Origin: Bilabrum cf. latius
Lineage: Eukaryota
Assembly (NCBI GenBank): GCA_965178125.1
Contig: OZ237753.1
Coordinates: 620,001-684,000, forward strand
DNA length: 64,000 nucleotides
Direction: 5' to 3'
In this document: one piece after another, positions 12,193-64,000 of the stretch
How positions within the stretch are numbered: position 1 is the stretch's first letter
Layout: each line of letters opens with the position of its first letter
Program-made: the position numbers and the translations under genes
Notes under the pieces: model-generated
The model's input: only the letters and a program-made list of their open reading frames with translations
Told to the model about the DNA's origin: nothing
Database searches by the model: none

Positions 12193-12230
12193 GCCACCCC
12201 AAGCATGCCAGCGACCAACAGCCCCAAACG

Positions 12231-13820: not shown

Positions 13821-13827
13821 TCCGACT

Positions 13828-24925: not shown

Positions 24926-27900
24926 TCAATCGGAGTCCTCGCCAACAGGGTCGAACCCTCCAGCGGTCGAAATGGCTGGCAGCCCGGCCGCCCCCCGCAC
25001 GCGAGACTTCTTGGCGGCTGGCTCAGAGTCGTCGTCCATTGCCGCGGTTGCCCCGCCCTTCAAGGCGCCGGTGGCAGCGAGCTTCCCAACTTGTGCTCTA
25101 CTGCGCTTGCCTCCGATCTGCACCTAGCTGCTTGGGCTGCCGCCTGCCTTGCGCGCTCTCTCAGCCTCATCCACGTCGTCCAGATCAAGCGATGCCGCCT
25201 CTCCCACGACCCGCGCCATGCCGGCCAATTCCCTCACGCAGCACAGAGCAAGCTCCCGCACGGTGGCGTGCTAAAACCGCGAGCAGCTGCCTTCGAGCGA
25301 ACTCAGCGACTCGGCCAGCTCGTTCGCCACGACTTCCACGTCTCCCAGGCTCGAACCGGACCTGCCGATGGCCATCGCAAGCTGCATGCCCGAGGCCTTG
25401 GGCACCGCAGACGCTTCCTCGGTGGTGCCGCCCCCCAGTTCCTCCCAGCGAACGCCGCTCGTGAGGTGCAAGCAGGTGACGGTGCTGGATTGCACCCGGC
25501 GGGCAAGTGCACTGGCAATCGCCTTCGTCTCGGGTGTGTGGGTGGGGAACTGGACCACTGAATTGATGCACTGCGTCATGGATCCGCCCCCGGGCAAGCT
25601 GATCGCCTTGGCGGTGGCTGCTGCCGTGGCTGCCTCGGCCGCGGCAGAGCTGGCACTACTTGCCGCAGCCGTGCCATCCGCCATACCTTCGCCGTGCTGC
25701 GGCAGCTGTGCCATGACTTTGTCCAGGGCCTCCAGCTGCACCCATGCGGTGCGAGCAGCGTGCCAAGCGCCCGACCTGCTGTTCGCATCCCTTGCATGCA
25801 TGACTGCCCCGCGCAGGGTGGCAGGCCGAGTTCGTTGCTCGTCGCTCTGGCTGGACTGTCCTTTGGGAGCACTGCCACGGGCCTCGCTGCCGGCGTTATC
25901 GTCACCATCGGCCAGATCAAATGTGGTGCACATGCTGTGCAGGTGTGCCTGCAGCACGTCCCAGTTCCGCACTGACCCAGACCTGCCTACCACGTGGGCG
26001 AGACCCATGCCACCGGCCCACGGCTGCCCTATGCTACCCAACACAAGCCACTGGAACGCGGCGACGATGCTCAGGGCAGCCTGGCCCCCAGCGGCGTCCC
26101 TTGCTCGCCCCCCGGGGCCACCAAGGGACTGTCGATCCCTGCCGCCACTGCTGCCTGCGCCGCTCGAAGAATCTCCAGAGCCCGATGATGCCGCCGACTC
26201 ATCGTCGCCGCCACCAGCGTCCTAGCCAGGCCCAGGAGCCAGCGTCTCGAGAGCCGACCTCGAGACTTGAGACACCCAGGAGCCCAGCACAGCCAGGGAA
26301 GAGCAGTCGGGCTGCTGGGCCGCGGCATGGAGCGCGGTGCGGTCCGTCTCGTCGCAGGCGATCAGCAGCTCAGCGCACCTCTCGATCGCATCTCCCTGGC
26401 CCATAAAGGCCCCGATGCAGGCCTCCACGCTGGCCGAGTCTCCAGCAGTAGGCACCGCCGCGCCCACGCAGCAGTGCAGTGCGGTCTGCCCAGGGGGCGC
26501 GGCGAATTGCATCACGCCGGCCCGCTGGCTCGGCTCCGAGGGTCTGGCACCCGGGGCGGCAGCCGATGCCGTCCTATCCGGACTCGCGCGGGGTGCTGGC
26601 ATGGGTGTGGACCCCGAGGAGCTTCCACTTGCCCTACTCGTGCCACCGCTGCCATTCGTCTGAAGTGAGCTGGAGCCATTCGAGTCGGAGATGCAGTAAC
26701 CCATGGTGCGGACCAGAAGCGGCCAGGCGAACACATCTCTGTGCTCGCACAGCACCTTTACGCAGTCAAAGTGCCTGCCGGCACACGCCACGTGGATGGG
26801 GTGCGCAAGCCCCAGCGTGGGGCATGGGAATGGCAGCGATGGCAGCGTCATCCTCGAGTCCTGCGCGCTCACAGGCGAGGCCAAGTCCGACGCCATCCCC
26901 TGGCTGCCCACGCTCTTGCCACCGTCTCGCATGTCGCTCGGTGAGAGCTGCAGAGCGGCCGCGCCGGCCGACAGCACCGCCTGATCCATGCCGTTCCGCA
27001 GCGCATCAAGGACGAGGGCGAGAGACCTGGTGTCGCCGTCCTCTGCCGCGCGAAACACGATCGCCTGGAAGGTCGGGTCGCCCCTCAGACCCGCCCTTGC
27101 GATCGCAGCGGATGCGAGCAGCTCCCCGGTGGTCACCAGGCCGATGGTACCAAGCCCCGCAAAGTTGCTGCCTGGGAATCCTCCGGGGCCTGCAAGTGCG
27201 GGCGTGGCCCCTCCGTGGTGTGCCGAGTACCTTAGCCTGAAGAGGGCCTCCTCGGCAGCGTGGATCAGCTGCCGCAGGTTCTGGTTTACCTTCGGCGAGA
27301 CTCGCACGCTGCCGTAAATTTCCTTGTATTGAGCAACAGCCCGTGTGAACCCAGACATGAAGCCCTGTGTCGGCACGCTATACGTGGCAGCTGGCGAGCC
27401 CGGTGCGGATGCTGCAGGTGCCCCTCCCTATTGGACTGCGCGGCCGGACGATCCTCCAGACATAGGGGCCTGGACCTGCCTGGCGGTGGCTGATTTCCCA
27501 TTGGGCGTGTGCGGGGCACTGGCAGCAGCTGGGTCCTCCCGAGCATGGTGGTCGTCATGCGCGGGGAGCTCCGTCCCGTGCTTTGCAAAGAGGTCGGCAA
27601 TCCTTGCTTGGACTTTTTTCTAAGACTCGTTCTCATGAGACTCGTTCTCATCGTCTGACCCAGCGCCGCTCTAGCTTCCAACGTCGCCAGATCCGGCACC
27701 GCCGCTAGACCCAAGCACCATGGCAAACACGCGGCTGGGGCCCCCCAATTCCCGTGCCGGGCCCCTGTGGCAGCTGGAGGGCATTCTGTCCGTGGAGGCA
27801 AGCCGGGCCGCCTGGATAGCCCGCACCACGGACTGGGCCCCGATTCGGCTCAGGGCACGCGCCGGGGGCACGGCCATCGACCTTAGCTGCTCGCGGCGAG

Positions 27901-28682
27901 CCAGCTGCATCTGGGCGGCTGCATGGGCCTGTTGCACCGCAGCGTCCTGCACCTGCTGACCCTGCGCATGCTGGTAGGTCCCGTTCGAACCACCCCTGCT
28001 AGCTGCAGCGCTGCTGCTGTTGCTGCTGCTGCTGCTGGAAGAAGAAGAAGAAGAAGAGGCCGGCTTGTGCGTCGATTTCGCCCTGGGCTGTGAGTGCTGC
28101 TTGGGCTTGGAGGACTTCCCTGCGTTGGCCTGTTTCGAGGATGCAGCCGAGACGTCCAATGCAACTGGGACTAGAGGATTGCCATCTTGGTCCTTGGCCA
28201 CCTCGGCGGCAGCGATGCGAGCCAGGGTGCGCGGGGAGCTCTCGCGCTTGGCTTCTTCCTCTCCTGCTGCAGATGCTGTCGCTCCGGCGGCTGCTCCTCC
28301 AGTGGCATCCACGGCCGCTGGCTCATCGATTTCGTTTAGTTTTTGCTTGAGCGCAACTGCGGAATGGTACAGGGCCACCGCAAAGATGTGCAGCTCGTGG
28401 GCCAGGCTCGGGCAGCCGCGGATCTTGGCCGTCTTCTTGTCCTTTAATCTTGAGTAAATATCGCGAATCTGTCCTCGAGTACTATTTTTAGCAGAAATTA
28501 CCCGGGAAACTACATTGCTCTCCGTACCCTGCACCGTGAATGACATCAAACTACCATCCGAATTCTGCTCTACTGTGAGGCACCCGAGGTGGGACGCAAG
28601 CTCGACCACCAAGCTATCCGTTGCGGGCGCTGGGACGTCAAGCAATTCGTCTGAGGCCTATCTTAACGTCTCGATAGCCTAA
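24926..28682 (-). CDS. Large protein with a few ankyrin repeats and low-complexity linkers (5' exon not resolved)
   Basis: ORFs 27671-28645, 26222-27376, 25271-26044 and 24926-25123 are one frame joined via TAGs. HPIHVACAGRHFDCVKVL, GQTALHCC, DETDRTALHAAA. Probable splice acceptor near 28683. Ends TGA. Confidence 0.75.
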
Positions 28683-29647
28683 CTGCGAGTTGATGCATGA
28701 ATGATGGTAAGAACGCGGATCAACAATTCAATTACTCTGGCACTCCGCAGGCAATTTAGCTGCATATCTGCACTCACTCAACAAGTTTACTAATATCTGA
28801 AGAAGACATTTTGGCTGTGTCAGATACACAGCAAAATTTGGCAGGATTGACCTCCTGTACAAGGCACTATGTGGAACAGAAGGATTTCTGGATCACTCCT
28901 TGTCGAATTCCCGGCAGGGTGACTAGTGCGACCGGCTGGAGGGGAAAAATGTAGTTTCCGGGAGTTTGCTTGATTCAAAAGCTCAAAGTTGAATTGTACA
29001 AGTTGGTTTCTAGTACCATGGCAACGAATGCTGCCGAAGAAGGTATACCAGCAGTGTTGGCATCGTTGCAAGAAGCGTTGGCGGATCTCAATGATACCAC
29101 CCCTGACCATGGCGATATCGATACCCCAGATCTGCTGAACAGTCACAGCAGAAACGACTCAGCACACACGCACGGTGAATCGCAGCAGAAGGGGCAAACC
29201 TCGCTCTAGGCATAGGGTCACGTCGAATCGTAGCTGCAGTCTGCTGGATCCTTCGCTAGCACATTCACAACCCTTTTGGTAATCGCAATGTGTATTTGGA
29301 TCGCACTTTGGGTACTAAAATCCCATGTTTAGGCTTTAACTGCTCGGTGCAGGAGACACGCATTCTGTGTGCGGTTCGCTCTTGCCATTAGCTGGCTCGT
29401 CTCGTCCGGCGATGCGGCAGCTGGATGCTTGGCCGCATGCTTTGCGCGGTGCGGACTGTGCTGCAGCTGTGGTGTACGCTTGTGTGCAACAGCAGCTAGA
29501 ACTACGGCGAGAACCGCCTGCAGTTGCGATCAGAATAGCCCGGGATCGGAACCGGTGGGTTGCTCCGCCATCCTGGCGTGGGTGCGAGCCCGGCTGCTGG
29601 GTGTCGCACTTTAGCTGGATCGATTTGCAAGGAGACAGGAAGCCGCA

Positions 29648-31738
29648 ATGGAGGGTGCGCATGACGTGTATGGCCTCTCGGACGGTGAGAGCGGCAGTAT
29701 GGCTGCGCCGAGCGGCAGGCGCTTGTCGGACGCCGCTGATGGCGCTGGTGATAGGGCCTCTGCTGCTCTCGAGATGGGCTGGATCCGCGGCATGGAGGCT
29801 GGCAACGCTCGAGGAGGCATGCATACCCAAATCGGGTCGGGGTCGGACCCGCCAGGAAGCGACAACACAGGGAGCAACGCAGGGACGAAGAGGACCCGCA
29901 GCAGGAGGGGGAGCATCCATGGCAGGGAGGACTTGAGTGACCTGGAGGCAGGGCGGTAGATGGACGATGCACATGGCACGGATACCTCTGGAAGCATGGC
30001 CAGCAGCGATCCTGCAGAGCTGTCGCGATCTAGATCGCACGCCGAATCAGCTCTTGGGCAGCTACGGTCGGTCGGGGGCCCCTCCACCCAGCGGCGACCG
30101 GCGCCCGTTTCCGATCCACCTCTGGTTCTCTTGGATGACCCCGTCGGTGAAGGGCATATAGGAACGGCAGGCTCGACTGCTATCAGTCCGAGCGACAGTG
30201 GTACATAGAGAATAGCGGGCGAGTCGGGAACAACTCGCGCCCTGTTGCGACCAGGGCGGGTGCGCGCACCCATGCTGCTGTTTCCCAAGCAAGGGGCCGT
30301 GCAGCTGCCCAATGGATCTCTTCTGCGGTATCACCCGGATTCTGGGACTTCGATGTCCGCGGCAGACAAGGGTAAGCCAAAGCCCGGCACAGGGTCCACC
30401 GAACCGTCCAGCCCAACTGCGCCTGCGTCAGGTCCTGTCAGTGCCGAGTGCATGCAGGCTGCTGCCCAGCTGCACCAGCGACTCCGGAGAGTTGTCATCG
30501 CTGCGTCTACCTCGTTGATGAGCGGCGGTGCTTAGGCAGGACAGCTGGCCGGCATCGGATCCAGGTCACCATCTGCCGGTGGTGCTGGTGCTGGTGCTGG
30601 TGCTGGTGTTTCGGGTGGCGCCAGCACCGGATCGTCGGGTTGGCGGCCCAGCCGGTCCACCGCCATCGCGTACCAGCTGGATGCAGGCACCGTGATTCCA
30701 TGGGCGGGTGGCAGCGGCAGTGCGGGGCGGGGAAGGAAGCTGGCCCCTCTCGCTTTCCTCAAGTGGCCAGCGAGTGCGATCGAGCAGGCCATGGCTGATG
30801 GTGGTGATCGTGGTGATGGTGGTGATGGTGAGCAGCCGTAGAAGGGCCTGTCGACTGGAAGCAGTGCCACGGCGAGGCACGCAGATCTGGTGGAATACGA
30901 AAGGATCGCGCGGCGCAGCGAGGGTGATGCTGCCGGGAGTCGGGACGATGCGAAGGCAGTCGATGCGACTGGGGGGAAGGCAGCGGGTCATGCTCCCGGT
31001 GGATCTCGCGCGATCGCATCTCCCATGCTCGCTTCGGCTCTGTTGGAGCACCTGCCTCGGGCACTTCAGGCGCGTGAGTGCACGATGCTGTACTCGAGCG
31101 ACTTGGACGGTCGAGGCTTGGCTCAGATGGTGTCCAGGAGCGAGGGCGCGGGCCCTTGCCTCGTGCTGGTCGAGTGTGCAGCGAGTGGTGTGGCAGTGGC
31201 GGGTTCAGTCGATGCTCACAATAATCCAGGAGCACGGGGCCAAGATATGGCTACAGATCTCCAGAAGAGCGTCGTAGTTGGCTGCTTCTTGCCGTGGGGC
31301 ATCACGGCAGAGCGCTATGTGAAAGGGCCTGGGTGCCTCGTCTTCCGCTGGCCCAATCAAGAAGGAAGTGTGTACGACAGTGATGAGAGTATAATGAAGG
31401 GTAGTGATGGGACAGTGTACTCCTGGACGATGCGAGGCAGCGATGCAGGGGGTAGCAGTGTGGCTGGCGAGGTGTCCGCTGACAGGATGTGGCTGGGCGA
31501 GTGCAGCGGTGGCTGTGGTGGTGGCGCTACTGGGGTTCAGCAGCAATAGAGTGGGTCTGGGTTTGGTGCACTGCTTGCCATGGACGCTGGCATGCACGAG
31601 TTGACATCTACAGGGGGTGTGTCTGGGTTCGGCCGTGTTTCGGGGTTGCTGGCGGGTGGCAATAGAGCTGGGAACCGGGTGGATGGTCTTGAGCAATCGG
31701 CGAGAGTGCTCGACGTGGAAGTGTGGGGATTCGCTTGA
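29648..31738 (+). CDS. TLDc-domain protein (OXR1/NCOA7-like); about 696 aa with TAG=Gln
   Basis: LYSSDLDGRGL, GPCLVLV, VVGCFLP, CLVFRW and the terminal VLDVEVWGF of the TLDc domain, reached only by reading through TAG 31547. Five TAGs in total; ends TGA. Confidence 0.85.
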
Positions 31739-32013: not shown

Positions 32014-35000
32014 ATGGATCGCCGACCTCTACTTCAAAGTGAAGAAGTGCGACCACTAGAACACGAAAAGTGGGAACTTGAGATGGGTGCAGCTGGTGCT
32101 GCAAAAGGCCATGCGGCCTCTTCAGTAGACTACGAAGGAGCAGCAGCAGCTGGCGGTGCAGTCGACATATCAGAGCTTGACCGCGGAAAGCAGCTCTCAT
32201 TAGCTGCACAATACGGACCCTTGTATGTACCTGGACTCCTTCACAATGCACCAACTTTCTCAGATAGTTACGATGCCTACGTGCATGCAGCACAAGAACA
32301 TTCTGCCATTCCTGGATCTGGTAAGCTGCCCTGGCCCCGGGACGAGGGAGCTTCGATGAGTGCTATTGAAGTTTCTGCATCATCATCAGATTCTTCACGC
32401 ATGACGCGGGAATTCAAGATTCCGGTGTCTGAATCGACTTCCAGTGCGGTTCCGGAGGCCTCCAGTACAATTGCGGGCAACACCCCCTCATCGGCCCCGC
32501 TGGACCCACAGGCTGCATTTGAAGCTGCCAAGAGGACGGTAGCAATCGCCCCATACGAAATCAGAGCACGGCAAAAGCGGCTGGAGGCAGTCGGCCGCAA
32601 GTTCGTGGCAAGCGCGCACGGAGTGCTGCAGGGCTTCCCCGAGGTGGACCTGCAAGGCCCGCGGTCCACATTCAGCCAGAGGGACAGGAGTGCTATCCAG
32701 GAAGCCACTGGAATCGAGTTTATCGATGCAGGGGGTCGGGCAGGTGGGATCAAGGCTATTCATGAGGGTCGTGGTCTGTTCCTCAAGTTTGCCTTCGACC
32801 AGATGGGGTACTACGGCAGTAGTGTCATGGCGGCCAAGGCGGCGAAGCGGGAGGCGGCGGCGAGCCGTTGGGTGCACGCAATGGACAGCGTGCACGTGTC
32901 GACGCCTCTGCTTGAGTGCGTGGACCTGCCTGTTGTGGTAGCAGCGGGCCGTTCACGCACTACCAGCGTGATCCGCGTGCAAGTGTTTGCTCGAGTGGCT
33001 GTGCGGCCGTGCAGCGAGTACGAATGGCAACATATGGAGGACCAGCACGCTAAACGCAATGACGGTCGCAGGCCTAGCCAGGCTCAGATGAATGATTACA
33101 ATGCACGATTCCTAGAGGGCGCACTTCGTTCGACTCTCCGTGTGGGATCCTGTGATGCACGCAAGTCCCTGCACGTTGACGAGGAGCAATGGCACCAGGT
33201 TGTGCAGCCGCTTGCCAGCCGATTCTTCCTTGCTTCTACTTCTCTGTCTGGTGGTATGATCGTGAACCATACGTATCAGATATTGGACACAGCGGGGATC
33301 GAATCAGGCTCGGATGTCAAAGCTGTGGCAGCTGCTACCACAGCACAAGCAGCAGCGGCGATCCCCAGCTAGGGCAGCTCCAGGTATCATCGGTTCTCGT
33401 CACTGGATGCTCTGTCACAGATACGCTCGGTCACGTATTAGAATATCAATGGCATCAAAAGCCGGATCAGTGCAGCTAGCTCCTTTGGTCGGCGACAGTC
33501 GAATCCGCATCAGCCGGGAGGAGCATTGTCCAGCCCTACTGATTCATCTACGGTGCGCACAGCAAACATATAGTCAAGCAGATCCACCCAAGATGAGGGC
33601 CACTCAATGTAGGTGGGCCCAGCGAGCGGGGCGGGTGTACTATTGCGTGCAACAGCACGTCCTGCAGCCGTAGCTCCCAGTCGACCAGCTGCTGCAGGAA
33701 CAGCTCGCAATGCTAGACGCAGCTTGTAGAAGAAGCAAGAGGGACTTGACCTGACGCGAGAAGAGCTGGAGCTGTAGCAAGCAATCCAGAGCTCGATCGA
33801 GTCGACTGGAGCAGACTTGGGGGATTCAGTGCCGCTTTGCAAAGTTGTGCATGCCGCGAAGTTGAGGAAGACTTCGGAACAACACCCTTACACGCGTTGC
33901 TTGCTACCTTTCGACGTCGAGGTACACCAGTTGGATGACGGGAGGCGAATCGTGCTAGATACTCACAGGCTCTTGATTCCTGATGTGCCGTGGATCGATT
34001 GGATGCGGACGCACAGAGACAGCGCTCCACACGTGTGGCTCATTACGCAGAGCGGGCAAATGGTCAAGGGTGCGATACAGTGCGAGCGCAGCCATGACAT
34101 TGCTCATGATACGAAGGGCAAAGAATTCATCGCTAGTATCCGAGAGTGGCTCTGCGACCAATCTGGTATCACCGGCATGTCGCTTCCGGAGCAGGTGTCT
34201 GACCTTCTTGTTGATAACATCACGCACGTCCATGACGCTGGCTGCATGGTATGCACGATTTCATTGGGTGTCTGGAGGGCCACTGCAATCATTGCTTGTC
34301 CAATCTGGTTCTGGGGCAAGACCCCCGAGTTGACGTGCCTTCTCCCACCAGAAGCTGCAGGCCGATTGCGGGCTAGAGACAGGCTGGGAGGTGTGGTGCC
34401 CGACGATGTCCTGGGGAGGAGACACATAGGTGTACAACGCGTTAGAGAGTCTGTGCAGTGGCTCTACAGCAACTTGCAACACGGAGCTGGTGCCGCTATT
34501 GGCGATCAGCTTGCGTCTTTTTTGGAAGACGAGGACACTGGCAGTGGCAGATCAACACGCGCGGCGCTGAAGCGGTTGCTACACCATTATGGGCTCGGCC
34601 TCCGACATGCCAGGCTCCTATGGGAATTGGCTGACGACTAGTCACGAAAGATAATCGAACGGGCTCTATGTTCCGTGAAAGACAGCAGCGTAGCAGCTGG
34701 TGCGATTGTATGTCTCATCTCGGCGGTGACTGACTCTGTGCGGCAAACGAGCCTCTGCTAGGATGGCAGTGTCACAAACTGTTCCGATGAGCTTATTGCG
34801 AGTGTTGCAGCAACTGCCCGTTGCTTTGCTTCGAAAGGAATTCTTGCAGATGCTGGGCTGGAATCTGGTCTGAGAAGTCCAACTGTCAGGGCAGGTACCA
34901 TTCTGCATGACGGTGCGCGGTGCGTTGGCACCTCGATAGCTCTACGGGGTGAAGCTCACTTGCACGCCAGTGGAAAAGGCGTAGCTGCCGCCATTGCTGA

Positions 35001-37401
35001 GCTCGCTCACTTGCAGAGAGTTGGCGGCGATGAGAATCTGGCACTTAGCCCAATCTATGAGCTGTCTGCTGTGTCTGCCGGCACGAGTTGGCTGAGGCTC
35101 TCAACTGCATTACGCATGGCTTCCGTGAGAACAATCCTCCGTTCAAAAAAGGAATTGGAGCTGGACACGGCCTCCATGAAGGGCGTAAGTGTTGCACTGT
35201 TTGAGGCCGGCATGCACTCATTGGTGCTTCGGGTGCTCGAGCATGCCTGTCAACTGAGGGGCATTCCCGATGTAGACACGTTGGACTCAAAAACCCGCTT
35301 AGTAGAGTGTTTATGTGCGACAGGGTCCTATGCTGAGGCTAATCTGATGCTAGACGCCATGATGAGCGGCCGTGGTGCGAACCGGCTATCGCTTCAGCTG
35401 AAATCTCTCAAGGCAAAAGCATTGTTTGGTCTTGGTATGTACAGGCAGGCACTCACATTGTATGAGGCTATATTCTCCAGTGTTTCGAGGCGAGGTGCTG
35501 CTCCTGCCTCTGCTTAGCTATCAACCTTAGTGCTGCGGCAGATTGCGCAGTGCCACTAGCGGTTAGGTCAATTTGAGACAGCGCTTGCTAGATTTGTCGA
35601 GTGCGAGTCCACGCAGCGTGAAGAGCTTGGCAACGACCACCCAGAATATGGTATTACTTTGTATGCGCGTGCTGGATGCCTCAGAAGCATGGGATAGTTC
35701 GATGCAGCAGTGGAATTGCTAGACAAGCGGCTGAGTATAGAGGAGCGGAGCAACGGCAAGGGAAGCTTGGGGTATACCGACACGTTGCGGGCCAAAGCAA
35801 AGTGTTTGTTGGATCTTGGAAAGTTTGCCGCTGCGCTTAAAATCTCGCACCAGAGTGCCTCGCTACTGAGTGACAGTGTTGGTGAACAGAGTCCCCATTG
35901 GGCTCGAGGTGCTCACGCTGTTGCGGAGTGCATGGTGACCATGGGGCAGTATCAGCCTGCTGCAGACCTTTTGAAGACAGCCTGCAGCGTGCTTCGGCTC
36001 TCTCTTGGATAGTAGCACTCCTGGTACGTGACTGCCGCCCTCGAGCTTGCGAAAGCGTACCGTGGGCAAGCGTAGTACCGCGATTCAAATCACATTTTTG
36101 AAGAGCTGCGCGTCAGCATGAGTTCTGGAACAAGCTTATCTGGCCGTCTTCTAGCGTCTGTTAAGCTTGCTTTCTATGATCACTGCACCGAGACATGCGA
36201 TCATCATGGTGCCGAGGCTGCCTGCCTGGAAGCACTGCGTTTGCTACAGGACAGCGATGATTACCTCATGATCATCAAAGCAAAGCGGCGACTTGCTTTG
36301 TCCATGCATGGGCTGGGCAAACGCGACCTAGCTCTTCCGATGCACCAGGAGTGTAGTGATAAAGTGAAGGAGACTCTCGGACCAGAGCACCCTGACTTTG
36401 CTGTGGCGCTCAGCGAGTAGGGCGATTGCCTTCGGCAGATGGGTAAGCTTGACAAAGCTCAAGAATGCTTTGAGGGATGCGAACGGATTGTCGAGCAATG
36501 CTTTGGCTGCATTCATCCCACGTACGCCATGATTTTGGGCCGCCAGGCGCAGCGTGCCTACGACAAGCTGGTTGGCGAATCGATGGCAGACACTGATATC
36601 CTTTTTGAGTCGCGGGAGCTTGCCAGGCGCTGCTACTCGAGATATGCGGACTCACTTGGACTACTACACCCGCGTTACGTGAATGCAGTATGCCTTTACA
36701 GCGAAACCAAGCTTGCCATTGATTGCATTCCTAGGAAGGTCGAGAGGGGTTGCGGAAGGAGCTCATCAGAGGCTGGGCCCCTATTGGAGCTTCTCCAAGC
36801 AACGATGCGGTCATTTACCCGTGCCAACGCCGACGTTCATCCAGCAGTAGCAAGGCTCTATCAACAGCTGGCTCGCTGTCACCTTGAGAATGCGTCTTGC
36901 CGTCCATGCCAATCTCAGGCATTTGCCTACGCGGATCGGGCTGTCAAAATAATGCAGCAGCTTGACGTCGCACGCGGCGTACAGTATTCTCTGTTTCTTG
37001 AAACCAGGGCGATGTGCGCCCATGTCTAGGCGTGTGGTTTCAGTTCCATGGCTTGTTCTGACAACCAAATAGTTTGTGACGGACTTATGTCTCATTTGGA
37101 CCAGCCAAGCAACTCCGCTGCTTGGTGGAGGGCAACCACCCGGATGGTTTGCTGCTGCTTAGCTGGGCCCACTGACTGGCTAGTCACTTTCCTGTTTTAC
37201 ATGATTCTTTATACCTTGTACACGGCGATGAGAACACATCCTCTGGCAGGATTTATCATTCTTGCAATGATAGTGCTCTGTATGCTGACGTGGCTGGGCG
37301 TTTTTCCCACTCCATCGTATCCACCTCAGAGCGTCGAATGGACCAACATCACCAGTAGTATGAATGATCTCTAGTGGCAGCCATAGATTGATCTGTTTTG
37401 A
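32014..37401 (+). CDS. Clu-domain (clustered mitochondria/TIF31-like) protein with UIM-like motif, kinesin-light-chain-type TPR repeats and C-terminal hydrophobic segments; 1795 aa with TAG=Gln
   Basis: GLFLKFAFDQMGYYGSSVMAAKAAKRE and PFDVEVHQLDDGRRIVLDTHRL (Clu); EELEL[TAG]QAIQSSI (UIM); LGNDHPEY and LGPEHPDFA (TPR). One frame with 18 TAG and no TAA/TGA until 37399. Confidence 0.88.
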
Positions 37402-37483
37402 GACTTTGAATGAGCAGTGAAGGCCCGCAGTCGACTCGGGTCTATGCGTTTGGCGGCACAGAGACGAGATCGAGAGACTGTGC

Positions 37484-37837
37484 GTTGGTGAGGCCAGCAA
37501 GGTCTCTGAGATTGAGGTCGCTCGGTGGGTGCAGGACCCGCTCGAGAAGCAGGCTCAGATGCAACGTAGCGATGCGGAGGAGTGAGAGAGAGAGAGCGGC
37601 TAGGGAGGGAAGTGCAGGGGCGGGGTGGTGGGGCGAATGGAGGGGTTGGGGAGGGTAGAGCAGAGGGAGGGGGACGACGGTTCACCGGAAAGGGGGAGGA
37701 AGTAGTGGAGGAGAAGATGATCGGTGGGGTCTTTGGGTTGATGCGGCGGATAGGAAGGGGGAGGCACAGGCTGGGCAGGTGTGGGTTTGGGCATATGTGA
37801 CGAGTGACTCGGATCAGGGGGATCGGATCACCGACCA
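37484..37837. repeat. Dispersed purine-rich repeat, copy 1 (about 350 bp)
   Basis: Direct repeat of 44084-44407 with sharp shared boundaries. Confidence 0.88.
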
Positions 37838-44083: not shown

Positions 44084-44407
44084 GTTGGTGAGGCCAGCAA
44101 GGTCTCTGAGATTGAGGTCGCTCGGTGGGCGCAGGACCCGCTCGAGGAGCAGGCTCTGATGCGACGTAGCGATGCGGAGGAGTGCGAGAGAGAGAGAGAG
44201 AGAGGGCAGCTAGGGGGGGGAGGGTAGAGCAAAGGGAGGGGGGGACGACGGTTCACCGGAACGGGGGAGGAAATGGTGGAGGAGAAGATGATCGGTGGGG
44301 TCATTGGGTTGATGAGGCGGATAGGAAGGGGGAGGCACAGGCCGGGCAGGTGTGGGTTGGGCATGTGTGACGAGTGACTCGGATCAGGGGGATCGGATCA
44401 CCGACCA
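44084..44407. repeat. Dispersed purine-rich repeat, copy 2
   Basis: Direct repeat of 37484-37837. Confidence 0.88.
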
Positions 44408-50065: not shown

Positions 50066-52960
50066 TCACTGAGGGACGCGGCGGTCAGACGATAAGGGAG
50101 ACCAGCGGCCCGCCTGGAGCGGCAACTGCCGATCCGCAATGCGCTTCTGCCACAAGGCTACGTCTCTAAAGTGCAAGCCAGCCTTCGTTGCATCTTTTGC
50201 TAGCTACGCTGCGGCAGCGGCGAGCAGGCTATCTGTCCCCTCAGCTCGCCGAGCAGTTGCCTGCGAGTGAGCACTCTCGTTCCTCCCTGCCTCCTTGCCA
50301 GTGGGGGACTCGGAGTCCTCCTCATGATGATGACCCGTGGCAGCGGGTGCGACCGACTCGATGCCACGCCCAGACTCGATCGAATCGCTGGCATCATCCA
50401 TTCTTAAACTAGACCCACCGCCGCTAGCATCTCCGCTCACGGCAGCAGCAGACGACGACAGCAGCACATCGAGGTCGCGAAGCGCCGCCTCAGCGACACC
50501 CCTGCAAGCCGCCTCATCCAGCAAACCCAGTCGAAACGCCTCCGACGCCGCGCCCGCGTACGTGTCAAAGAATACCACCCCGTTCCCACGATGCCACGCC
50601 TTGGCCCGACCGTCGCCGGCCAGCGCTCCCGGCCTCACGTCGTGGATGAAGGCACCCCTCACGCGGTCCTTGTGTTCCCTGAGGAGGTGGGACGCGACCA
50701 TCGCGTCTGCCTGCCCGCTGTCTCCGAGGAACACGAATTCATCCTCGGGGAACAGCAGGAGCGTCCTCTCGGCGTTCTCGATCTTCTTGCGAGCAATGGC
50801 CGCATGGCTGGTTGCGTGAAGCAGGGAGCCGCAGAGCACCGCGCTCTTGGGAATGCCCAGCGCGGCGATCTTGGCAGTGGTTACGCGCTTGACCAGGCCA
50901 TTGATCCCCGCAGGACGAGCTGTGATCACGGTGAGGTCCCCCCTGTCCTCGCAGCCCATGGCAGGCTCTGCATCTGCACCTTCACCTTCACCACGAACTG
51001 CAACCTCGGTCGTTGGATCTGCAGTCGCAGCGTCGGCGCCTGCACCAGCATTGGCCTCTGGCGCGAAGACGAGAGCACTGAGGAGTTGCATTGCAGTCTC
51101 TCCCTCTTCCGCAGAGGTAGCTCTTGTATCTGCTATCAAATGGGAGTCTTCATCCGACGGCGATCCGGTATCGGAATCGGTTGCTTCCTGGTCCGGTGGG
51201 TCCTGCTCCGAGCCACTGCCGGTGGCTCTGCCAATTGCTGGGGTCTCTGACAGTCGACCAGGTCTATTTGCACCTCGAATACGGCCTATTCTCTGCTGCA
51301 CCCGGACACGCACAGCAGCAGCTGCCCTGTCCTTCGCCTGCGACATGCCTGATACAGCTGCCTGCCAGAGCGCCGTGGCACCGGGCACCAGCCGATTCGA
51401 GGATATCCCCCCCACTGCCTCCTGAATCGCCGCCATCGTGCTGCTGCGTGACTAAGCAACTTGGTGTGCCACCGAATCATCTCTAGGGTCTGGATCTTGC
51501 ACCCTGAGACCATCCGGCTGGCAGCTAGGTGCACTCGTCGAGCTGAGCTGCTGAGCATCGTATCCGCCATCTGCCCCTAGAATCTCCCGCTACAAGCGGA
51601 TCGATGAAGGCGACAAGGTAGGCAGGCGAAATGGCGGTCCTGCCTCTACTTGAAGGCAATCTAAACGCACATACTCTGTCGTGCCGTGGGTTGCAGTCGC
51701 CGGGCCCATGCTCGTGCGAGTCTATTGTGCATCGCACGTTCCTTCGGTACGCGGGGCCCCGATGAGCTCCGATTGCACACCATTGATACTGTCTGCAGCA
51801 TTCACATCGTCCAGATAATTCACTTCCTCATAGATGCGTCTTGCTGTAGCGGGCGGACTCGCAGCACCAGCACCAGCACCAGCACCAGCACCAGCACCAG
51901 CACCAGCACCAGCACCAGCACCAGCACCAGCACCAGCACCAGCACCAGCACCAGCACCAGCACCAGCACCAGTACCAGCACCAGCACCAGTGCCCATTGG
52001 TCGTGTCCTGAGGGCCTCCAAGAAAGCGAGCACGCCAGGGAACACAGACCCGGGGGGATACCGCTTGTCCATCCAACCCTGCTGTATGGTGTCATCGTAG
52101 TCACTGAGCACGTGGATGGGGGCACCATTGCTGCCGTGCTGCGCTTGCTCGGCTCGATGCAGGCGATCGGATTGCACTGCGACGTGCTGCAGCACGCGAG
52201 CTCTGAGTGTGGTGGAGCCAAGGTCGTTAAAGACCAGTCGCACCAGGTCATTTCGGCCCCGCTGGAGCATTAGGGCCCGCTTGAGCCGCGTGAGATCGTG
52301 ACCACTCGTGGCGAGCAGCACCCTCGCAGCTGCCTCGATGGCCGATGCATCGCGACGGCCGCGACGGATTCTCACCCCCTCACGATGAAGGGCTTGAATC
52401 AACCCAGCCCGTGCGTGCAATGTCAATTCATGTATTCTGTCTATCGTCAATACGTCGTACAACTCTGCCTTCTAGGGGTTGTGCCGCCGCATAGCCGCAA
52501 ATAAGTCGAAAGCTGGCGGATGGTAGCGCTAGTGCTCGGCCTCAGCCTGAAGGCTGCCAGCAAGGAAAGCATTCACAATGATTTGGCTTGAGCTGCGAAA
52601 TACCTACACTATCGCGCCAGGACGTCGTCTTGCGGCATTGATCAGGTCATGCACTGGCTATGCCAGTAGCTTCTGCTGTGCTGCCTGAGATTCAGAATCT
52701 AGCAAAGCGTGCCATTCCTCCAAAAGCCTTGCCTCGTCCCTTGCAGACAATCCGAGCTGATCTGCTCGCTGCCGCAACTGGTGCTTGACGCTCTGATATA
52801 GGTCGCGAAGGACGCCAGTTGCACTTGGTTTCACGGCACCCGCCGGAGCTTCTTGAAGACGCGGCGCAATCGATGCCGCCGTTCTGCCCAGCGGACCCTT
52901 CGAACATACTCTCAATGAAGACATCAGCCTCATTGCTGGTCGAGCGCATCGCGTACGCAT
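50066..52960 (-). CDS. App1-like (DUF2183, HAD-fold) phosphatidate phosphatase; about 964 aa with TAG=Gln, possible mitochondrial presequence
   Basis: HVLSDYDDT, YPPGSVFPGVLAF, TVITARP, FVFLGDSGQAD, AFIHDV. ORFs joined in frame via TAGs; ends TGA 50066. Confidence 0.78.
51863..51990. repeat. (GCACCA)n hexamer tract encoding (Gly-Ala)n in the App1-like gene
   Basis: About 21 direct hexamer copies, one with a substitution. Confidence 0.95.
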
Positions 52961-57706: not shown

Positions 57707-60700
57707 TCATGGCTTGAGGCCATCAATTGACACTCGAGGGACTTCGGCGGCAGCAGTCGGTTCCGCACCTGCTGGTTCGAATGCTCGGGACCGAGCGGCA
57801 TTCGTGCCGCTGCTGCCAAGATCAAAAGCGGGCTTCGCCGTAGCATTTATCCCGCTTACAGGTGTTGATTCCCTACGATGATCATCCGGTGAAGCGTCCC
57901 GCCTCCGGCTCGCTCTTACCGTGCGACCGCCTTGAATCTGCTCGAGCGCTCGCATTAAGTCCTTGGCCTGCTGCAGATCGCGCTCCCACTCCTCCGGCTC
58001 TTTAGGCTTACCAGCAGCACCTGTGCTGCCATATGACTGCATCCGCCGCCTTCCAGCTGCAGCTATCCCAGCTCGATCACTTGCCCCGCCCCCGCTGCCC
58101 CTCGCAGCCGAGACGAGCCCGATCTCTGCATCCACGTCCATGCCCAGCCCCCCTGCCCTTTGCAGCACGTCGCGGACTCTGGACTTGCGGTCGTTGTCAC
58201 CCACCTCCTGCTCCTTCCCCGACACTGCATTGCGATGCACCCCCGCAGAGCTGGGATACTCGTCCAGCCGCCTCAGCATGCCCCTCTCCTGATCCTCGAT
58301 CCTCGAGACTCGCCCAGCCATGCCGTCCAGCTCGCCCCTCACCTCTCTGAGCCTCTGCCGCACGGCTTCCTCCCTCTCAGCCGCCTCTAGAGCCGCTGTG
58401 GGAGTGCCCATCTGGGTGTCCCTCGACCGGAGCTAGTGCCTCAGCTCGGGGGATGGGACTGGGTCATTGTCAGACTAGCACTGCGCTGTGCCCCTCGAGA
58501 CTGTGTGGTCCGGCTCGCGGGCAATGGCCGAAGGTACGGCGGGGCCTAGAATCGATGGCGCGATCCTGCTGTGGCTTCGGCGGGATTGTGCCTCTGGTTT
58601 CCCTGCATCGGTGGGGATCGACCGGGCGCCCTATTCACCAGGGTGCACATGGGATTGACCACCACCTGTTCCGCTCGGTGCTCCGCTGAGCCTCGGGGAC
58701 GCTGGCACAGTCATCCTGTCCAGCTCGCTCTCGTCCAAGATGTCACCCAGGAGCAACACGTCGCTGTCGTCCACAGCACCGTTCGAATCCTCCGAAGGGC
58801 CAGCGACCGGTGTGCCTATCCATCCGCCAGCAGCCCCAGGCCCGACCCCTGCGGGTGAGACGAGGCCAGCACTGCCAACCGACGCGCTCGGTCTGTGCCC
58901 TTGCCGCGGCGATGAGAAATGCTAGAGAGCCTAAGGCACGGTACTAGATATAGGCAGCCCCTCAGCAGAGATTCGAACGGACACGCCCCTCTTCTCGCCC
59001 TGCACACCGCGTGAGCCAGCTGTGCGCAGCTGGGTTTCGCTGGCGGTGAAAACAGCCTCGTGCTCATCAGCAGCAGGGACAGTAGATGCCCCCGCTAGCT
59101 TCGAGACGCTACTACCATCCTGCCTCCGGGCATCACCCCTAAGTTCCTGCGGGACAGGCATCCGCAGCAGCCGAAGAGATCCCAAAGCACCGCCGGCTCC
59201 ATCACCTGCGCGAGAATCCGGCTGGTGACTTGCCGCTGCTGCTCGCCCCAGCGACTCCCGCTCCTGACCAGTGCTAGGATTGAGAGCACGGAAAGTGCTA
59301 GGCGCGCTTGTACCTCGATGAAATGGCCTGGTGACGCGCGTCCTGCCGGGTGTGGTTCCTGATTGTGTCGAGGAGTCGGTCGTATCGACATCCACCAGGG
59401 ATCTCCTTCTATCTGCCCCACTATGCTTCCGGGCTTGCGGTAGTGCTCGACGCGCGGCAGCAGGCATCGTCTGCAATGGGGCCACTTTCCATCCGTCTAC
59501 AATGGCCCCGGGGTGCTGCTGTGCTGCAGTCCGCACCTCAGCTGCTAGCTTGCTCGAAGCCGCCAAGGTGGCACTAAGAGGACCAGCGATCTTTGAGGGA
59601 GCTTCTCGCTCTGTTCGTATCCGGCTACGAGACGATGCTCGGCTATCATGGGGTGGAACGTGCGCATTGGTCGAGCCGGCAGTCGGTTTCTTGCCCCGCA
59701 AGAGTTGTTGGCCCCGTTGAATCCTCTCCTGCAGCGAGCGCAGATGCTGGGTCTGGCCATGAGCACCAGAGTCTCGGAAGCTGGCAGCGGATCGTCCGTG
59801 GGCCAATGACTCGCGCAATGCTTCACGACTTGTTCCAGGTTCAATTGAGCTGATCGGCAGTTGGCGCGTCGGCACAGGGTCAAAGCCATCGCCGCCCGTC
59901 TAGTCCTGGCTAGAATCCAACGGGTCGGTCTGCATCGCTGTCTCTGTCTCTTGCCTCTGCGATACCGTCTCGAGTTCATCTCTCCTTCCGTCGCAGCCCG
60001 GCATCGATGCAGAGAGATCCAAGACAGTCCGCGGGGACGTCGCCGCTCCCTCGGTTGGCTGTGCCTGCTCCGGCTGGGCGTCTGCAACCTGCCTCGCGGC
60101 GGGCGGCACGGGCGGCACGTCGGCAGCACTCTCTGAGTTGTGATCCACAGAGAATCCCACCGATTTCACGCGGCACTCCCGCTGGGCCTTGAACGACGAT
60201 GAGCCAGGAGACGTGGTGGGCGGAGCAGACACGAGGTCTGAGTCCAGCAGCAGCATCGCACTCTAGTCAGGGGACTTCCCCAGGGCTGGTGACAACGATG
60301 TTGTCTCCTTGGCACCAGCGGTCTCTTCAGTGGGCAGTTGCACCTCTTCAGAAGACTTCAAAGCGAAGTGATCGCCGCTATCGCTAGCTATTTGGGCTGC
60401 TTGCTCTGCTGACAGGCTCTCAGCTGGGCTTTTCGCGAGAGCGGCACGAGGCAAAGGCTCGATGCTTGCAGAGGCTTCCGCGCAAGACTCTGCAGCAAAC
60501 CCAGTTCTACTTGAGGCGGCAAGATTCCCTTTCTTTTGTCGGGGTACAAGCTTCAGATCGTCTTCGTCGTCTTCTTCTCCAGAAACATGGCCTCCATCCG
60601 CCCCTGCCACTGACAGCCGATCCTCTAGCGTCTTGCCCCATGACTCGTGCTCTTGCTGCAACTTTCGAATGGCTTCAAGGGAAGTTTTCTCGCTGCTTGA

Positions 60701-63700: not shown

Positions 63701-64000
63701 TACATCGTGCTGTGGCACAGCCGATACCCTCGCTCCAGCAAACATGGCCGCGTACGTAGCCACGGTGCTGCACCGGGCACCTAGCAGCAACTCAACACCA
63801 AGTGCAGGCGTCACCTCTGGGACAGCGAGAACTCCCCGTTCGGCCGTCTCCCTCTCAATTGTCGCGAACCGAACGACATCACTGTGGCGCACAGGCCTAC
63901 CTGCCACACCAGTCATCACGCCAGCAATCGAAGGCGGGTCTAGACAAGGGGCCTCATGGGGCAGCACGACGTGCATAATGCCATCTTGATACTTGCCTTT
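57707..64000 (-). CDS. Very large hypothetical protein (>2090 aa, 5' end outside the window): helical N-terminal part and long low-complexity C-terminal part
   Basis: One frame, open from the window edge to TGA 57707, with more than 20 TAGs and no TAA/TGA found when the inter-ORF segments were translated by hand. Confidence 0.75.

What the first reader, a model, noticed from the sequence alone, without database searches (positions are those of the whole stretch)
32014..37401. Strongest single-locus evidence: 1795-codon Clu/TPR gene with 18 TAG and zero TAA/TGA; internal repeats decode TAG as Gln
SEEN: 18 in-frame TAGs, including a TAG-TAG doublet at 36010-36015, with no other stop or frameshift. 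Random pseudogene decay would also give TAA, TGA and indels. Equivalent TPR positions read LG-CAA-FETA, MG-TAG-FDAA (35695) and MG-CAG-YQPA, so TAG alternates with Gln codons. EELEL-TAG-QAIQSSI (33775) fits the ubiquitin-interacting motif pattern.
Basis: partly seen in the sequence, partly recalled or inferred. Interest (0 to 1): 0.85.

Follow-up and report, generated by a model that had tools for sequence, protein, structure and literature searches.

The report
Eukaryote that reads TAG as glutamine
A long, intact Clu-like gene interrupted only by TAG codons belongs to an uncultured, GC-rich eukaryote that appears to translate the TAG stop codon as glutamine, which is a rare kind of genetic-code change.

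Summary
Window 32014-37401 (+) is one frame of 1795 codons ending in TGA, with 18 TAG and no other TAA/TGA (chance of no TAA/TGA about 9e-13). It encodes a Clu-like protein: a CLU domain split by a 197-residue insert, kinesin-light-chain-type TPRs and a hydrophobic C-terminus. The same TAG-only pattern occurs in 12 of the 16 other window ORFs I took as genes and in 25 related metagenome loci. It is therefore a property of the organism's code, not of this gene.

TAG most likely means glutamine. In orthologue fragments (three 84-86% identical, one 55%) of the neighbouring gene 57707-63976, 5 of 6 window TAG columns carry Q (1 H). Two fragments end exactly at window TAGs. Across 21 family members a calibrated column test (61 of 61 sense codons decoded correctly) puts Q first (3.3-fold enrichment; bootstrap 4886 of 5000).

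The internal TPR position holds K and M as well as Q and TAG, this gene's own columns are undecided, and no UIM is detected.

I could obtain no tRNA(CUA), eRF1, RNA or peptide evidence, and the lineage is unidentified. UAG-only-to-Gln codes are known (Iotanema, two ciliates). This would be a new, GC-rich case that terminates mostly at UGA.

The parts
32014..37401 (+). Clu-like/TPR gene: ATG, 1795 codons, terminal TGA; 18 in-frame TAG, no other stop
32770..33246 (+). N-terminal part of the CLU domain (aa 253-411; Pfam CLU profile 67-184 of 225)
   Evidence: (E 5.1e-6, 26.9 bits, cut-off 24)
33247..33837 (+). 197-codon low-complexity insert inside the CLU domain. It holds 6 of the 18 TAGs (33370-33775) and the UIM-like string at 33760-33798. 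The frame is kept in all family members
33838..33993 (+). C-terminal end of the CLU domain (LPFDVEVHQLDDGRR..LDTHRLL.PD; Pfam CLU profile 174-225). This is the most conserved block of the family
35530..36480 (+). TPR_12 / kinesin-light-chain-like TPR region (aa 1173-1489) with TAGs at 35557, 35695, 36010, 36013, 36073 and 36418
   Evidence: TPR_12 E 2.5e-31; KLC1 7ai4_A E 4.2e-11
36010..36015 (+). TAG-TAG doublet (aa 1333-1334), at the 'LG x x H(P/S)' turn of a TPR pair
37144..37305 (+). Two hydrophobic stretches at the C-terminus (aa 1711-1739 and 1744-1764); possible membrane anchor (inferred)
   Evidence: Kyte-Doolittle 19-residue windows up to 2.55
37372..37401 (+). Last 10 codons: TAG (37372), TAG (37384), then TGA (37399). 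This may be a short extension beyond an ancestral TAG stop (inferred)
57707..63976 (-). Neighbouring 2089-codon gene with 21 TAG. It supplies the orthologue evidence: TAG columns 102, 233, 767, 970 and 1025 are Q and column 913 is H in orthologue fragments; fragments end at TAG 114 and TAG 261
28697..31738 (+). Upstream neighbour, TLDc-domain gene, 1013 codons, 12 TAG, ends in TGA
24926..28765 (-). 1279-codon gene with 8 TAG (weak Ank hit), ends in TGA
50066..52960 (-). APP1-like phosphatidate phosphatase gene, 964 codons, 8 TAG, ends in TGA

Best explanation
The window is nuclear DNA of an unidentified, GC-rich (55-67%) eukaryote in which long genes run without visible introns. In this organism UAG is an ordinary sense codon read as glutamine, while UGA (mostly) and UAA terminate. 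The 1795-codon frame is therefore one intact gene. It is a member of a lineage-specific, multi-copy family of Clu-like proteins: a CLU domain split by a disordered insert, a central family-specific region, kinesin-light-chain-type TPRs, and here a hydrophobic C-terminal tail.

Shown here: TAG is the only stop-type codon inside long conserved frames. It is shared by several related organisms. TAG columns behave like Gln-codon columns.

Inferred from known UAG-only codes: decoding by a tRNA-Gln with anticodon CUA, which would not read UAA, together with an eRF1 that has lost or weakened UAG recognition.

Also inferred: TAG is a disfavoured Gln codon. It makes up about a fifth of putative Gln codons in low-GC3 genes and is almost absent from high-GC3 genes.
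For: (1) TAG-only frames.
- 18 TAG and 0 TAA/TGA in 1795 codons, P about 9e-13.
- 13 of the 17 ORFs I took as window genes carry 95 TAG in 15047 codons. All 17 end in TGA (14) or TAA (3).
- The window has 8 ORFs of 1000 codons or more only if TAG is sense.

(2) The pattern is reproduced elsewhere.
- 25 of 26 metagenome loci found with the family's conserved block give frames of 332-1989 codons with 286 TAG in all.
- Their longest standard-code ORFs are 165-505 codons.
- TAA-sense or TGA-sense does not extend them comparably.
- Flanking P450, GH3/WSC, PLD, Pan3 and AAT genes in those loci also carry in-frame TAG.

(3) Orthologue fragments. For gene 57707-63976, fragments P0054-P0056 (84-86% identical) and P0057 (55%) give:
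- Q at window TAG columns 102, 233, 767, 970 (in two fragments) and 1025;
- H at column 913.
That is 5 of 6 columns.

Adding Clu column 916 (E in P0009) gives 5 of 7. P(5 or more of 7 by chance) = 1.6e-6 at a Q frequency of 3.8%.

The residue after the last residue of five orthologue fragments falls on window TAG, TAG, CAG, CAG and TCG.

(4) Family column test. It used 21 non-redundant sequences, with alignment built with X at TAG.
- The method decodes 61 of 61 sense codons correctly.
- For 175 TAG occurrences in 141 columns, Q is first.
- Residue enrichment in the other sequences is Q 3.3x, E 1.5, K 1.4, R 1.4, L 0.7, Y 0.9. The shape matches CAA (Q 4.4x) and CAG (Q 6.1x).
- The profile classifier puts Q ahead of E by 20.2 log units, with bootstrap Q 4886 of 5000.

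(5) Nearest well-aligned partner of TAG (56 of 246 occurrences usable): TAG 18, Q 12 (CAG 10, CAA 2), R 6, E 3, A 3, P 2, G 2, other 10.

(6) Eukaryotic gene content: CENP-C, CLU, TLDc, APP1, ankyrin, PhyH and sulfatase, and Pan3, MDH and WD40 in related loci.
Against: - No tRNA of any kind was found in the 64 kb window or the 26 loci. No eRF1 gene was available. No RNA run was identified and no proteome exists, so translation itself is not shown.
- Some TAG columns are not Gln-like. Clu X916 aligns with E. Column 913 of the neighbour aligns with H. X1168 sits where 9 of the 10 paralogues with a residue have Tyr. GH3 TAGs align with P, S/N, Q/K and S in solved structures.
- The stricter per-column likelihood puts Q first by only 17.5 log units over R, and Q wins 1156 of 2000 bootstraps (R 523, E 215, S 102).
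- TAG sites are less conserved than CAG/CAA sites. The per-site score is negative, at -71.6 over 175 sites.
- The ORFs were defined by reading TAG through. That they all end at TGA/TAA, and that they contain no TAA/TGA, is therefore partly by construction. TAG serving as a stop at some gene ends cannot be excluded.
- The gene set was picked by me; 9 of the 17 ORFs have a Pfam hit.
Confidence: 0.88

Rival explanations
1. TAG has a dual meaning: Gln inside genes but also a terminator at some gene ends, depending on context, as in ambiguous ciliate or Blastocrithidia-type codes.
For: TAG density is slightly higher near ORF ends. It is 10 of 750 codons in the last 30 codons, against 214 of 24597 further than 100 codons from the end. 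The Clu-like gene has two TAGs in its last 9 codons. My ORF definition cannot see TAG stops.
Against: The end enrichment is small. No nucleotide context separates TAG from CAG/CAA/GAG. Conserved enzymes whose ends can be compared stop at TAA/TGA. For example, the GH3 frame aligns right up to its last residue (query 982; chain position 742 of 743).
Confidence: 0.1
2. TAG is a sense codon for another amino acid (Glu, Arg, Lys, Leu, Tyr, pyrrolysine), or is decoded ambiguously by several near-cognate tRNAs.
For: E at Clu X916 and H at column 913. R and E are the runners-up in the per-column likelihood. X1469 falls on the hydrophobic 'NNLA' position of a TPR, and the TAG doublet falls on the 'LG..HP' turn, where D/E are typical. 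That consensus is recalled, not tested.
Against: Enrichment at TAG columns is E 1.5x, L 0.7x, Y 0.9x and K 1.4x. The true codons of those residues show 3.4-4.2x, 3.6-4.8x, about 15x and 7.7x. The profile classifier gives E -20.2, R -23.1 and K -27.3 log units relative to Q. 5 of 6 orthologue columns of the neighbouring gene are Q.
Confidence: 0.05
3. The DNA says TAG but the mRNA says CAG: U-to-C RNA editing restores a Gln codon, and the code itself is standard.
For: It would give exactly the same Gln signal at TAG columns. No RNA data could be obtained to exclude it.
Against: It would need about 1 editing site per 100 codons in nuclear genes, restricted to in-frame TAG. By my recall, no such nuclear system is known. 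TAG positions are conserved between orthologues and TAG makes up about 20% of putative Gln codons, as expected of a normal synonymous codon.
Confidence: 0.02
4. The frame is a decaying pseudogene, or an assembly or sequencing artefact.
For: Many in-frame stops; low GC3 (0.56) compared with some neighbours.
Against: Only TAG occurs, with no TAA/TGA and no frameshift. The sequence is identical in contigs of two studies. The same pattern is found in 12 other window ORFs and 25 related loci. Pfam domains are intact on both sides of TAGs.
Confidence: 0.01
5. The contig belongs to a giant virus or other mobile element that uses a TAG-recoded code (as phages use code 15), not to a cellular genome.
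For: It has GC-rich, ankyrin-rich, repeat-rich sequence. Giant-virus MAGs whose genes are better predicted under alternative codes have been reported (PMC13524828, passages read).
Against: The genes are cellular housekeeping types (CENP-C, Clu-like, Pan3, MDH, a Miro-like lead). Proteins reach 2000 residues and have long low-complexity tracts. Scans of viral contigs found nothing. No viral hallmark gene appeared in any Pfam scan.
Confidence: 0.02

Closest known systems
Nuclear code of Iotanema spirale (Fornicata): UAG = Gln, UAA and UGA stops (Panek et al. 2017, PMC5304391; abstract read)
   Same: UAG alone is reassigned, to glutamine. UAA keeps its stop meaning, so UAG and UAA are decoupled.
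   Different: I. spirale uses UAA as its primary terminator. Here TGA ends 14 of 17 window ORFs and TAA ends 3. The genome here is GC-rich, and the lineage is unidentified with no sign of being a fornicate. Evidence here is DNA only; theirs was transcriptomic.
Phyllopharyngean ciliates Hartmannula sinica and Trochilia petrani: UAG = Gln (McGowan et al. 2024, PMC11687900; abstract and introduction read)
   Same: UAG-only reassignment to Gln, with UAG widely used as a sense codon.
   Different: In those ciliates UAA is the preferred stop. Their paper reports suppressor tRNA(CUA) genes only for two of the UAG=Leu genomes (abstract), and I did not read what it found for the two UAG=Gln species. 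Here no tRNA was found in the available DNA, stops are mostly TGA, and genes are up to 6 kb on a contig of at least 64 kb.
UAG = Leu codes (Rhizaria sp. exLh, PMC5304391; three TARA phyllopharyngean MAGs, PMC11687900)
   Same: UAG is decoupled from UAA; they were discovered in meta-omic data.
   Different: The amino acid differs. Leu is depleted at TAG columns here (0.7x).
UAR = Gln codes (NCBI table 6: many ciliates, hexamitid diplomonads, some green algae) and table 15 / phage 'code 15'
   Same: Stop-to-glutamine reassignment. Table 15 gives the right translation for this window.
   Different: In table 6 TAA is also Gln. Here TAA never occurs inside the long frames, and TAA-sense does not lengthen ORFs. 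Phage code 15 belongs to bacterial viruses; this window has eukaryotic genes.
CLU / TIF31 / CLUH (clustered mitochondria) proteins
   Same: CLU domain followed far downstream by TPR_12-type repeats.
   Different: No other Clu-associated Pfam family is listed. The CLU domain is split by a 197-residue insert. There is a hydrophobic C-terminal tail. The gene is one of many paralogues (15 related loci in one metagenome), whereas Clu is, as I recall, usually single-copy.

Membership tests
UAG-only-to-Gln nuclear genetic code (Iotanema type; translation as NCBI table 15) | In-frame TAG in intact, conserved protein-coding genes across the genome | tested here: met
   95 TAG in 13 of 17 window ORFs; 286 TAG in 25 related ORFs; TAG inside P450, GH3, PLD and Pan3 genes
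UAG-only-to-Gln nuclear genetic code (Iotanema type; translation as NCBI table 15) | TAG columns correspond to glutamine in homologues | tested here: met
   5 of 7 orthologue columns are Q. In the family test Q is first with 61 of 61 calibration, and bootstrap Q 4886 of 5000. The stricter likelihood gives Q in 1156 of 2000 bootstraps
UAG-only-to-Gln nuclear genetic code (Iotanema type; translation as NCBI table 15) | TAA and TGA are not sense codons and serve as terminators | tested here: met
   No TAA/TGA in 1795 codons, P 9e-13. TAA-sense or TGA-sense gives no ORF of 1000 codons or more. ORF ends are TGA 14 and TAA 3; this last point is partly by construction
UAG-only-to-Gln nuclear genetic code (Iotanema type; translation as NCBI table 15) | A tRNA with anticodon CUA and glutamine identity | tested here: inconclusive
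   ARAGORN found no tRNA at all in the window or in 26 loci. No whole genome is held
UAG-only-to-Gln nuclear genetic code (Iotanema type; translation as NCBI table 15) | eRF1 changed so that UAG is not, or only poorly, recognised | not testable with these tools
   No eRF1 gene is present in the DNA available
UAG-only-to-Gln nuclear genetic code (Iotanema type; translation as NCBI table 15) | Direct evidence of translation (transcripts with UAG, peptides with Gln) | not testable with these tools
   No listed run is on record as RNA. The laid runs are contigs that look like DNA
CLU / TIF31 / CLUH family | CLU domain (Pfam PF13236) | tested here: met
   26.9 bits against a cut-off of 24, aa 253-411. 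The C-terminal end of the profile (174-225) matches aa 609-660 at 15.3 bits. P0010 scores 48 bits. L001 and L020 score 29.9 and 32.8 bits
CLU / TIF31 / CLUH family | The other Clu-specific modules (CLU N-terminal and CLU central/eIF3_p135 domains; names recalled) | tested here: not met
   No such family is listed at E<=0.01 for the whole protein, at E<=10 for aa 1-452 and 590-875, or at E<=1e-4 for five paralogues
CLU / TIF31 / CLUH family | C-terminal TPR repeats | tested here: met
   TPR_12 E 2.5e-31; kinesin light chain TPRs are the best solved matches
Ubiquitin-interacting motif (UIM) | Match to the UIM profile at EELEL-TAG-QAIQSSI | tested here: not met
   No UIM is listed for the whole protein or for the 40-residue stretch at E<=10 under Q, E or L. 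The column is not conserved in the family. The string fits the recalled pattern L-x-x-A-x-x-x-S only by eye

The most novel reading that the evidence does not exclude
This is an undescribed, GC-rich, apparently intron-poor eukaryotic lineage. It was seen in runs of two studies at near identity (a third held only a small share of the stretch's words), in contigs carrying four JGI prefixes, and in other public assemblies. It would have reassigned UAG to Gln independently while keeping UAA and UGA as stops, with UGA as the main terminator. That would be a further independent origin of the rare UAG/UAA decoupling, and the first outside AT-rich, UAA-terminating organisms. TAG behaves as a disfavoured Gln codon, absent from high-GC3 genes. 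That could mean decoding still competes with termination, so the reassignment may have been caught at an intermediate stage.
Probability: 0.45. Interest if true: 0.8.

Novelty: new member of a known kind. Interest (0 to 1): 0.7.

Why it matters
Nuclear codes in which UAG and UAA have different meanings were unknown until 2017 and are still known from only a handful of lineages (PMC5304391, PMC11687900). They bear on how tightly the two codons are coupled by tRNA wobble and by eRF1.

A case in a GC-rich genome that terminates mostly at UGA would widen the conditions under which UAG can be captured. It would also give a new natural eRF1/tRNA(CUA) pair to study.

There is a practical consequence too. 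Standard gene callers cut this organism's genes into pieces. The protein databases hold only fragments of the relatives, which is why the window looked orphan. Any metagenomic annotation of this lineage needs table 15.

Tried and rejected
- RNA evidence: no RNA holder is listed. The four laid runs are contigs and look like DNA.
- tRNA and Rfam: no tRNA and no Rfam family.
- Protein searches with the whole Clu-like protein: near-length candidates gave only generic TPR proteins (6 hits). The search of aa 1100-1795 among shorter proteins gave 40 generic TPR hits and no orthologue fragment.
- Locus scans that found nothing:
  - Clu-like protein in genome contigs and viral contigs;
  - the ankyrin C-terminal module A1 in metagenome contigs;
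  - A2 in genome contigs and viral contigs.
- L026 (GC 0.77, E 1e-8) looks unrelated and was left out of all counts.
- Decoding from this gene alone: 10 usable columns, undecided.
- GH3 against solved structures: the TAG columns give P, S/N, Q/K and S, which is not informative.
- Context of TAG: no signal. TAG near ORF ends: only a weak excess.
- UIM: not detected.
- Taxonomy:
  - two other window proteins gave only 'Eukaryota' or mixed taxa;
  - no marker gene or rRNA is available, so the lineage stays unidentified;
  - a thraustochytrid-like affinity (GC-rich, intron-poor, secreted sulfatase and GH3) is only a guess from recalled genome features.
- Literature: six searches found no GC-rich eukaryote with UAG = Gln. 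Amoebophrya sp. ex K. veneficum was considered and rejected, because it has all three stops in frame and 58% of them are UAA (PMC12005148, passages).
- Supplementary files of the papers were not consulted.
- Rows dropped before the family counts: L010, L011, L013, L018 and L023, each 99-100% identical to a kept row.

Full report
**Observation.** Translating window 32014-37401 (+) gives 1795 residues or stops and then TGA. These include the doublet at 36010-36015, TAG 35695 and TAG 33775. There is no TAA and no internal TGA.

With the window's six-frame rate of TAA+TGA (1.53% per codon), 1795 codons free of both has P = 9.2e-13. Eighteen stops all being TAG has P = 2.7e-9.

The TAGs are in the reads. 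A contig of run X1 covers 32895-37512 without a difference. Contigs of run X5, from a second study, cover 34806-36060 and 36230-37381 without a difference, which takes in 8 of the 18 TAGs. X1 may be the window's own sample.

**It is a property of the genome, not of the gene.** If TAG is read through, the window has 8 ORFs of 1000 codons or more. Under the standard code, TAA-sense or TGA-sense it has none (ORF list).

I took 17 ORFs as genes; 9 of them have a Pfam hit.
- 13 of the 17 carry TAG: 95 TAG in 15047 codons.
- All end at TGA (14) or TAA (3). The ends and the lack of TAA/TGA are partly by construction, because I defined the ORFs that way. The length statistics above are not.
- TAG tracks low GC3. 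The four ORFs without TAG are the sulfatase, the Miro-like ORF, PhyH and 810-1610, with GC3 of 0.70-0.92. Genes with GC3 near 0.6 have about 1 TAG per 100 codons.
- The gene content is eukaryotic: CENP-C, CLU, TLDc, APP1, ankyrin, PhyH and sulfatase.

**What the gene is.** Pfam gives TPR_12 (E 2.5e-31) and CLU (26.9 bits, cut-off 24, aa 253-411).

The most conserved block of the family, LPFDVEVHQLDDGRR..LDTHRLL.PD, matches the last 52 positions of the CLU profile. The CLU domain is therefore split by a 197-residue low-complexity insert (aa 412-608) that holds 6 of the 18 TAGs. All 25 relatives keep the frame open (no TAA or TGA) along the whole ORF, this region included, so it is coding and not an intron.

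The best solved matches are kinesin light chain TPRs. The C-terminus has two hydrophobic stretches. No other Clu-associated family is listed.

The gene is one of many paralogues. I therefore call it Clu-like, not a Clu orthologue. Its cellular role is not established here; a TPR scaffold anchored in a membrane is only an inference.

**Relatives.** Near-length protein searches gave only generic TPR proteins. Among shorter proteins there are three fragments:
- P0008: 78% identical, aa 606-814;
- P0009: 64% identical, aa 885-1157, listed with the same longest-contig length (5218 nt) as P0008, so probably from one contig;
- P0010: 45% identical.

So a relative's gene is also cut into pieces by a standard gene caller.

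I aligned the conserved block with P0008 and P0010 (A2) and scanned JGI metagenome contigs. This gave 26 loci.
- In 25 of them the matched frame runs for 332-1989 codons if TAG is sense, with 286 TAG in all.
- Their complete 3' ends are at TGA or TAA, and their longest standard-code ORFs are 165-505 codons.
- L026 is GC 0.77, looks unrelated, and was left out.
- Five full-length members show the same CLU/TPR_12 make-up.
- Flanking genes in these loci (P450, GH3 with WSC, PLD, AAT, Pan3) also carry in-frame TAG. MDH and a WD40 gene have none.
- L018 carries the same unnamed C-terminal module as the window's two ankyrin genes, which ties the loci to the window's clade.

**Which amino acid: orthologues.** I searched the 1.84-billion-protein representative library with the first 1200 residues of the neighbouring gene 57707-63976, which has 14 TAGs in that stretch. 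This returned 5 hits. Three are 84-86% identical and one is 55% identical.

In BLASTP alignments:
- window TAG columns 102, 233, 767, 970 (in two fragments) and 1025 are Q;
- column 913 is H;
- P0056 and P0055 end exactly before TAG columns 114 and 261, so the orthologue has a stop-type codon there too.

Adding Clu column 916 (E in P0009) gives Q in 5 of 7 columns. P = 1.6e-6 at a Q frequency of 3.8%.

The position after the end of five fragments falls on window TAG, TAG, CAG (Q986), CAG (Q815) and TCG. I cannot see their DNA, so a contig end in place of a stop is possible for some of them.

**Which amino acid: family columns.** I aligned the 26 family ORFs with X at TAG. I dropped five rows that are 99-100% identical to others: L010, L011, L013, L018 and L023.

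For every codon I collected the residues of the other sequences in the same column, requiring 8 or more.
- A per-column likelihood decodes 61 of 61 sense codons correctly. It puts Q first for TAG (175 occurrences, 141 columns), ahead of R by 17.5 and E by 33.6 log units.
- That score is sensitive to a few conserved non-Q columns. Bootstrapping columns gives Q 1156, R 523, E 215, S 102, A 3 and K 1 of 2000.
- Enrichment at TAG columns is Q 3.3x, E 1.5, K 1.4, R 1.4, L 0.7, Y 0.9. This is nearly the profile of CAA (Q 4.4x) and CAG (Q 6.1x). It is unlike GAG/GAA (E 3.4-4.2x), Leu codons (3.6-4.8x), Lys codons (7.7x) or Tyr codons (about 15x).
- Where the other sequences have a 50% or greater consensus (47 TAG occurrences), the consensus is Q 16, R 7, E 7, P 4, A 3 and others 10.
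- A classifier that compares the whole substitution profile is right for 61 of 61 codons when the codon itself is left out. It gives Q, with E at -20.2, N -21.6 and R -23.1 log units. Q wins 4886 of 5000 bootstraps.
- Taking only the nearest well-aligned partner (56 of 246 TAG occurrences usable) gives TAG 18, Q 12 (CAG 10, CAA 2), R 6, E 3, A 3, P 2, G 2 and others 10. For CAG, partners are Q in 106 of 173.

Mutational proximity alone does not explain this. CAG columns are enriched for R, one transition away, by only 1.4x.

**What does not fit, or is weak.** This gene's own 18 columns do not decide the matter.
- Ten are usable, and R, K, Q and E lie within 0.8 log units.
- X1168 sits where 9 of the 10 paralogues with a residue have Tyr.
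- GH3 TAG columns align with P, S/N, Q/K and S in solved xylosidases.
- The UIM is not detected.
- TAG sites are on average less conserved than CAG/CAA sites.
- TAG is slightly denser in the last 30 codons (10 of 750 against 214 of 24597 further than 100 codons from the end), so a residual stop function at some gene ends is not excluded.
- No sequence context marks TAG.

**Mechanism.** Shown: TAG is a sense codon that behaves as Gln, TAA and TGA are not sense, and the trait is shared by related organisms.

Inferred from the known UAG-only codes (PMC11687900, introduction): a tRNA with anticodon CUA, which reads UAG but not UAA, charged with Gln, plus an eRF1 with weakened UAG recognition. Neither could be looked for. 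No tRNA occurs in the available DNA and no genome is held.

TAG makes up 319 of 1633 putative Gln codons (TAG+CAG+CAA) in 36101 codons, yet it is almost absent from high-GC3 genes. This suggests it is a disfavoured codon.

**Comparison with what is known.**
- UAG = Gln with UAA kept as a stop is described for Iotanema spirale (PMC5304391, abstract).
- It is also described for Hartmannula sinica and Trochilia petrani (PMC11687900, abstract and introduction). In all of these UAA is the preferred stop.
- UAG = Leu occurs in Rhizaria sp. exLh and in three ciliate MAGs (same papers).
- Amoebophrya sp. ex K. veneficum has all three stops in frame, mostly UAA (PMC12005148, passages), so it is different.
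- Six full-text searches found no GC-rich eukaryote with this code. Supplements were not read.

I could not identify the lineage. I therefore rate this as a new member of a known kind, with about even odds that the lineage itself is undescribed.

**Verdict.** The reading of an intact gene with TAG = Gln is well supported, at 0.88, mainly by evidence from outside the gene. Interest 0.7.

Noticed in passing
window 8838-10406 and 12231-13820: Inverted duplication of about 1.57 kb, 99-100% complementary, with arms about 1.8 kb apart. It copies part of ORF 8267-11560 (-) into ORF 12142-14073 (+), including the same TAG positions. It could be a recent palindromic duplication or an assembly artefact.
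   Followed up: partly
window 38816-39145 (-), 44786-45115 (-), more distantly 2025-2354 (-); L018:667-1638: An unnamed C-terminal module of about 85 residues (..RAH-TAG-DAARVFKAAS.GR..ELGKRLRLGKLAGGL..) follows the ankyrin repeats of two window genes. The two copies are 82% identical and have a TAG at the same position. The module recurs in a metagenome locus. It has no Pfam hit. Summed contig depth is raised over 38844-39507, which overlaps this module; whether that reflects extra copies was not checked.
   Followed up: partly
window 18672-21500 (-): A 942-codon ORF with no TAG and no Pfam hit at E<=0.001. Its language-model features are nearest to mitochondrial Rho GTPase (Miro) clusters, score 0.95, which is a lead only. 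It lies about 10 kb from the Clu-like gene.
   Followed up: partly
window-wide; e.g. 4389-6695 (-) against 32014-37401 (+): TAG density follows codon bias. There is 1 TAG in the four ORFs with GC3 of 0.83-0.92, and about 1 per 100 codons in ORFs with GC3 near 0.6. TAG behaves like the rare codon CAA even though it ends in G.
   Followed up: partly
window 37516-38179, 41500-42163, 43492-44155: Very high summed contig depth in all four laid runs, up to about 8000-9000 at 41500-42163. There are many partial matches at 85-95% identity and many loose ends, which points to dispersed repeats or simple (TGC/TGG)n tracts, one of them inside ORF 41538-42689.
   Followed up: no
window 4389-6695 (-): The sulfatase ORF starts at position 30 of the Pfam Sulfatase profile and carries a C-terminal ricin-type lectin domain. 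The missing N-terminus may lie in an upstream exon, which would be one of the few hints of an intron in this window.
   Followed up: no
window 1405-2604 (-): This ORF translates into about nine tandem copies of a 13-residue unit (CDWGHVRHLQASR), so it contains a 39-nt tandem repeat. It has no Pfam hit, and the frame may not be a real gene.
   Followed up: no
window 50066-52960 (-), aa 322-366; L002:3-1556: Long dipeptide microsatellite tracts lie inside coding frames: (Gly-Ala)n in the APP1-like gene and (Met-Gly)n in the Pan3-like gene of L002.
   Followed up: no
L009/L010, L011/L012/L013, L017/L018, L023/L024: Pairs or triples of contigs carrying different JGI contig prefixes are 99-100% identical over the family gene. 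The same organism therefore recurs in several data sets. 15 distinct family loci carry a single prefix, so the Clu-like family is large within one community or genome.
   Followed up: partly
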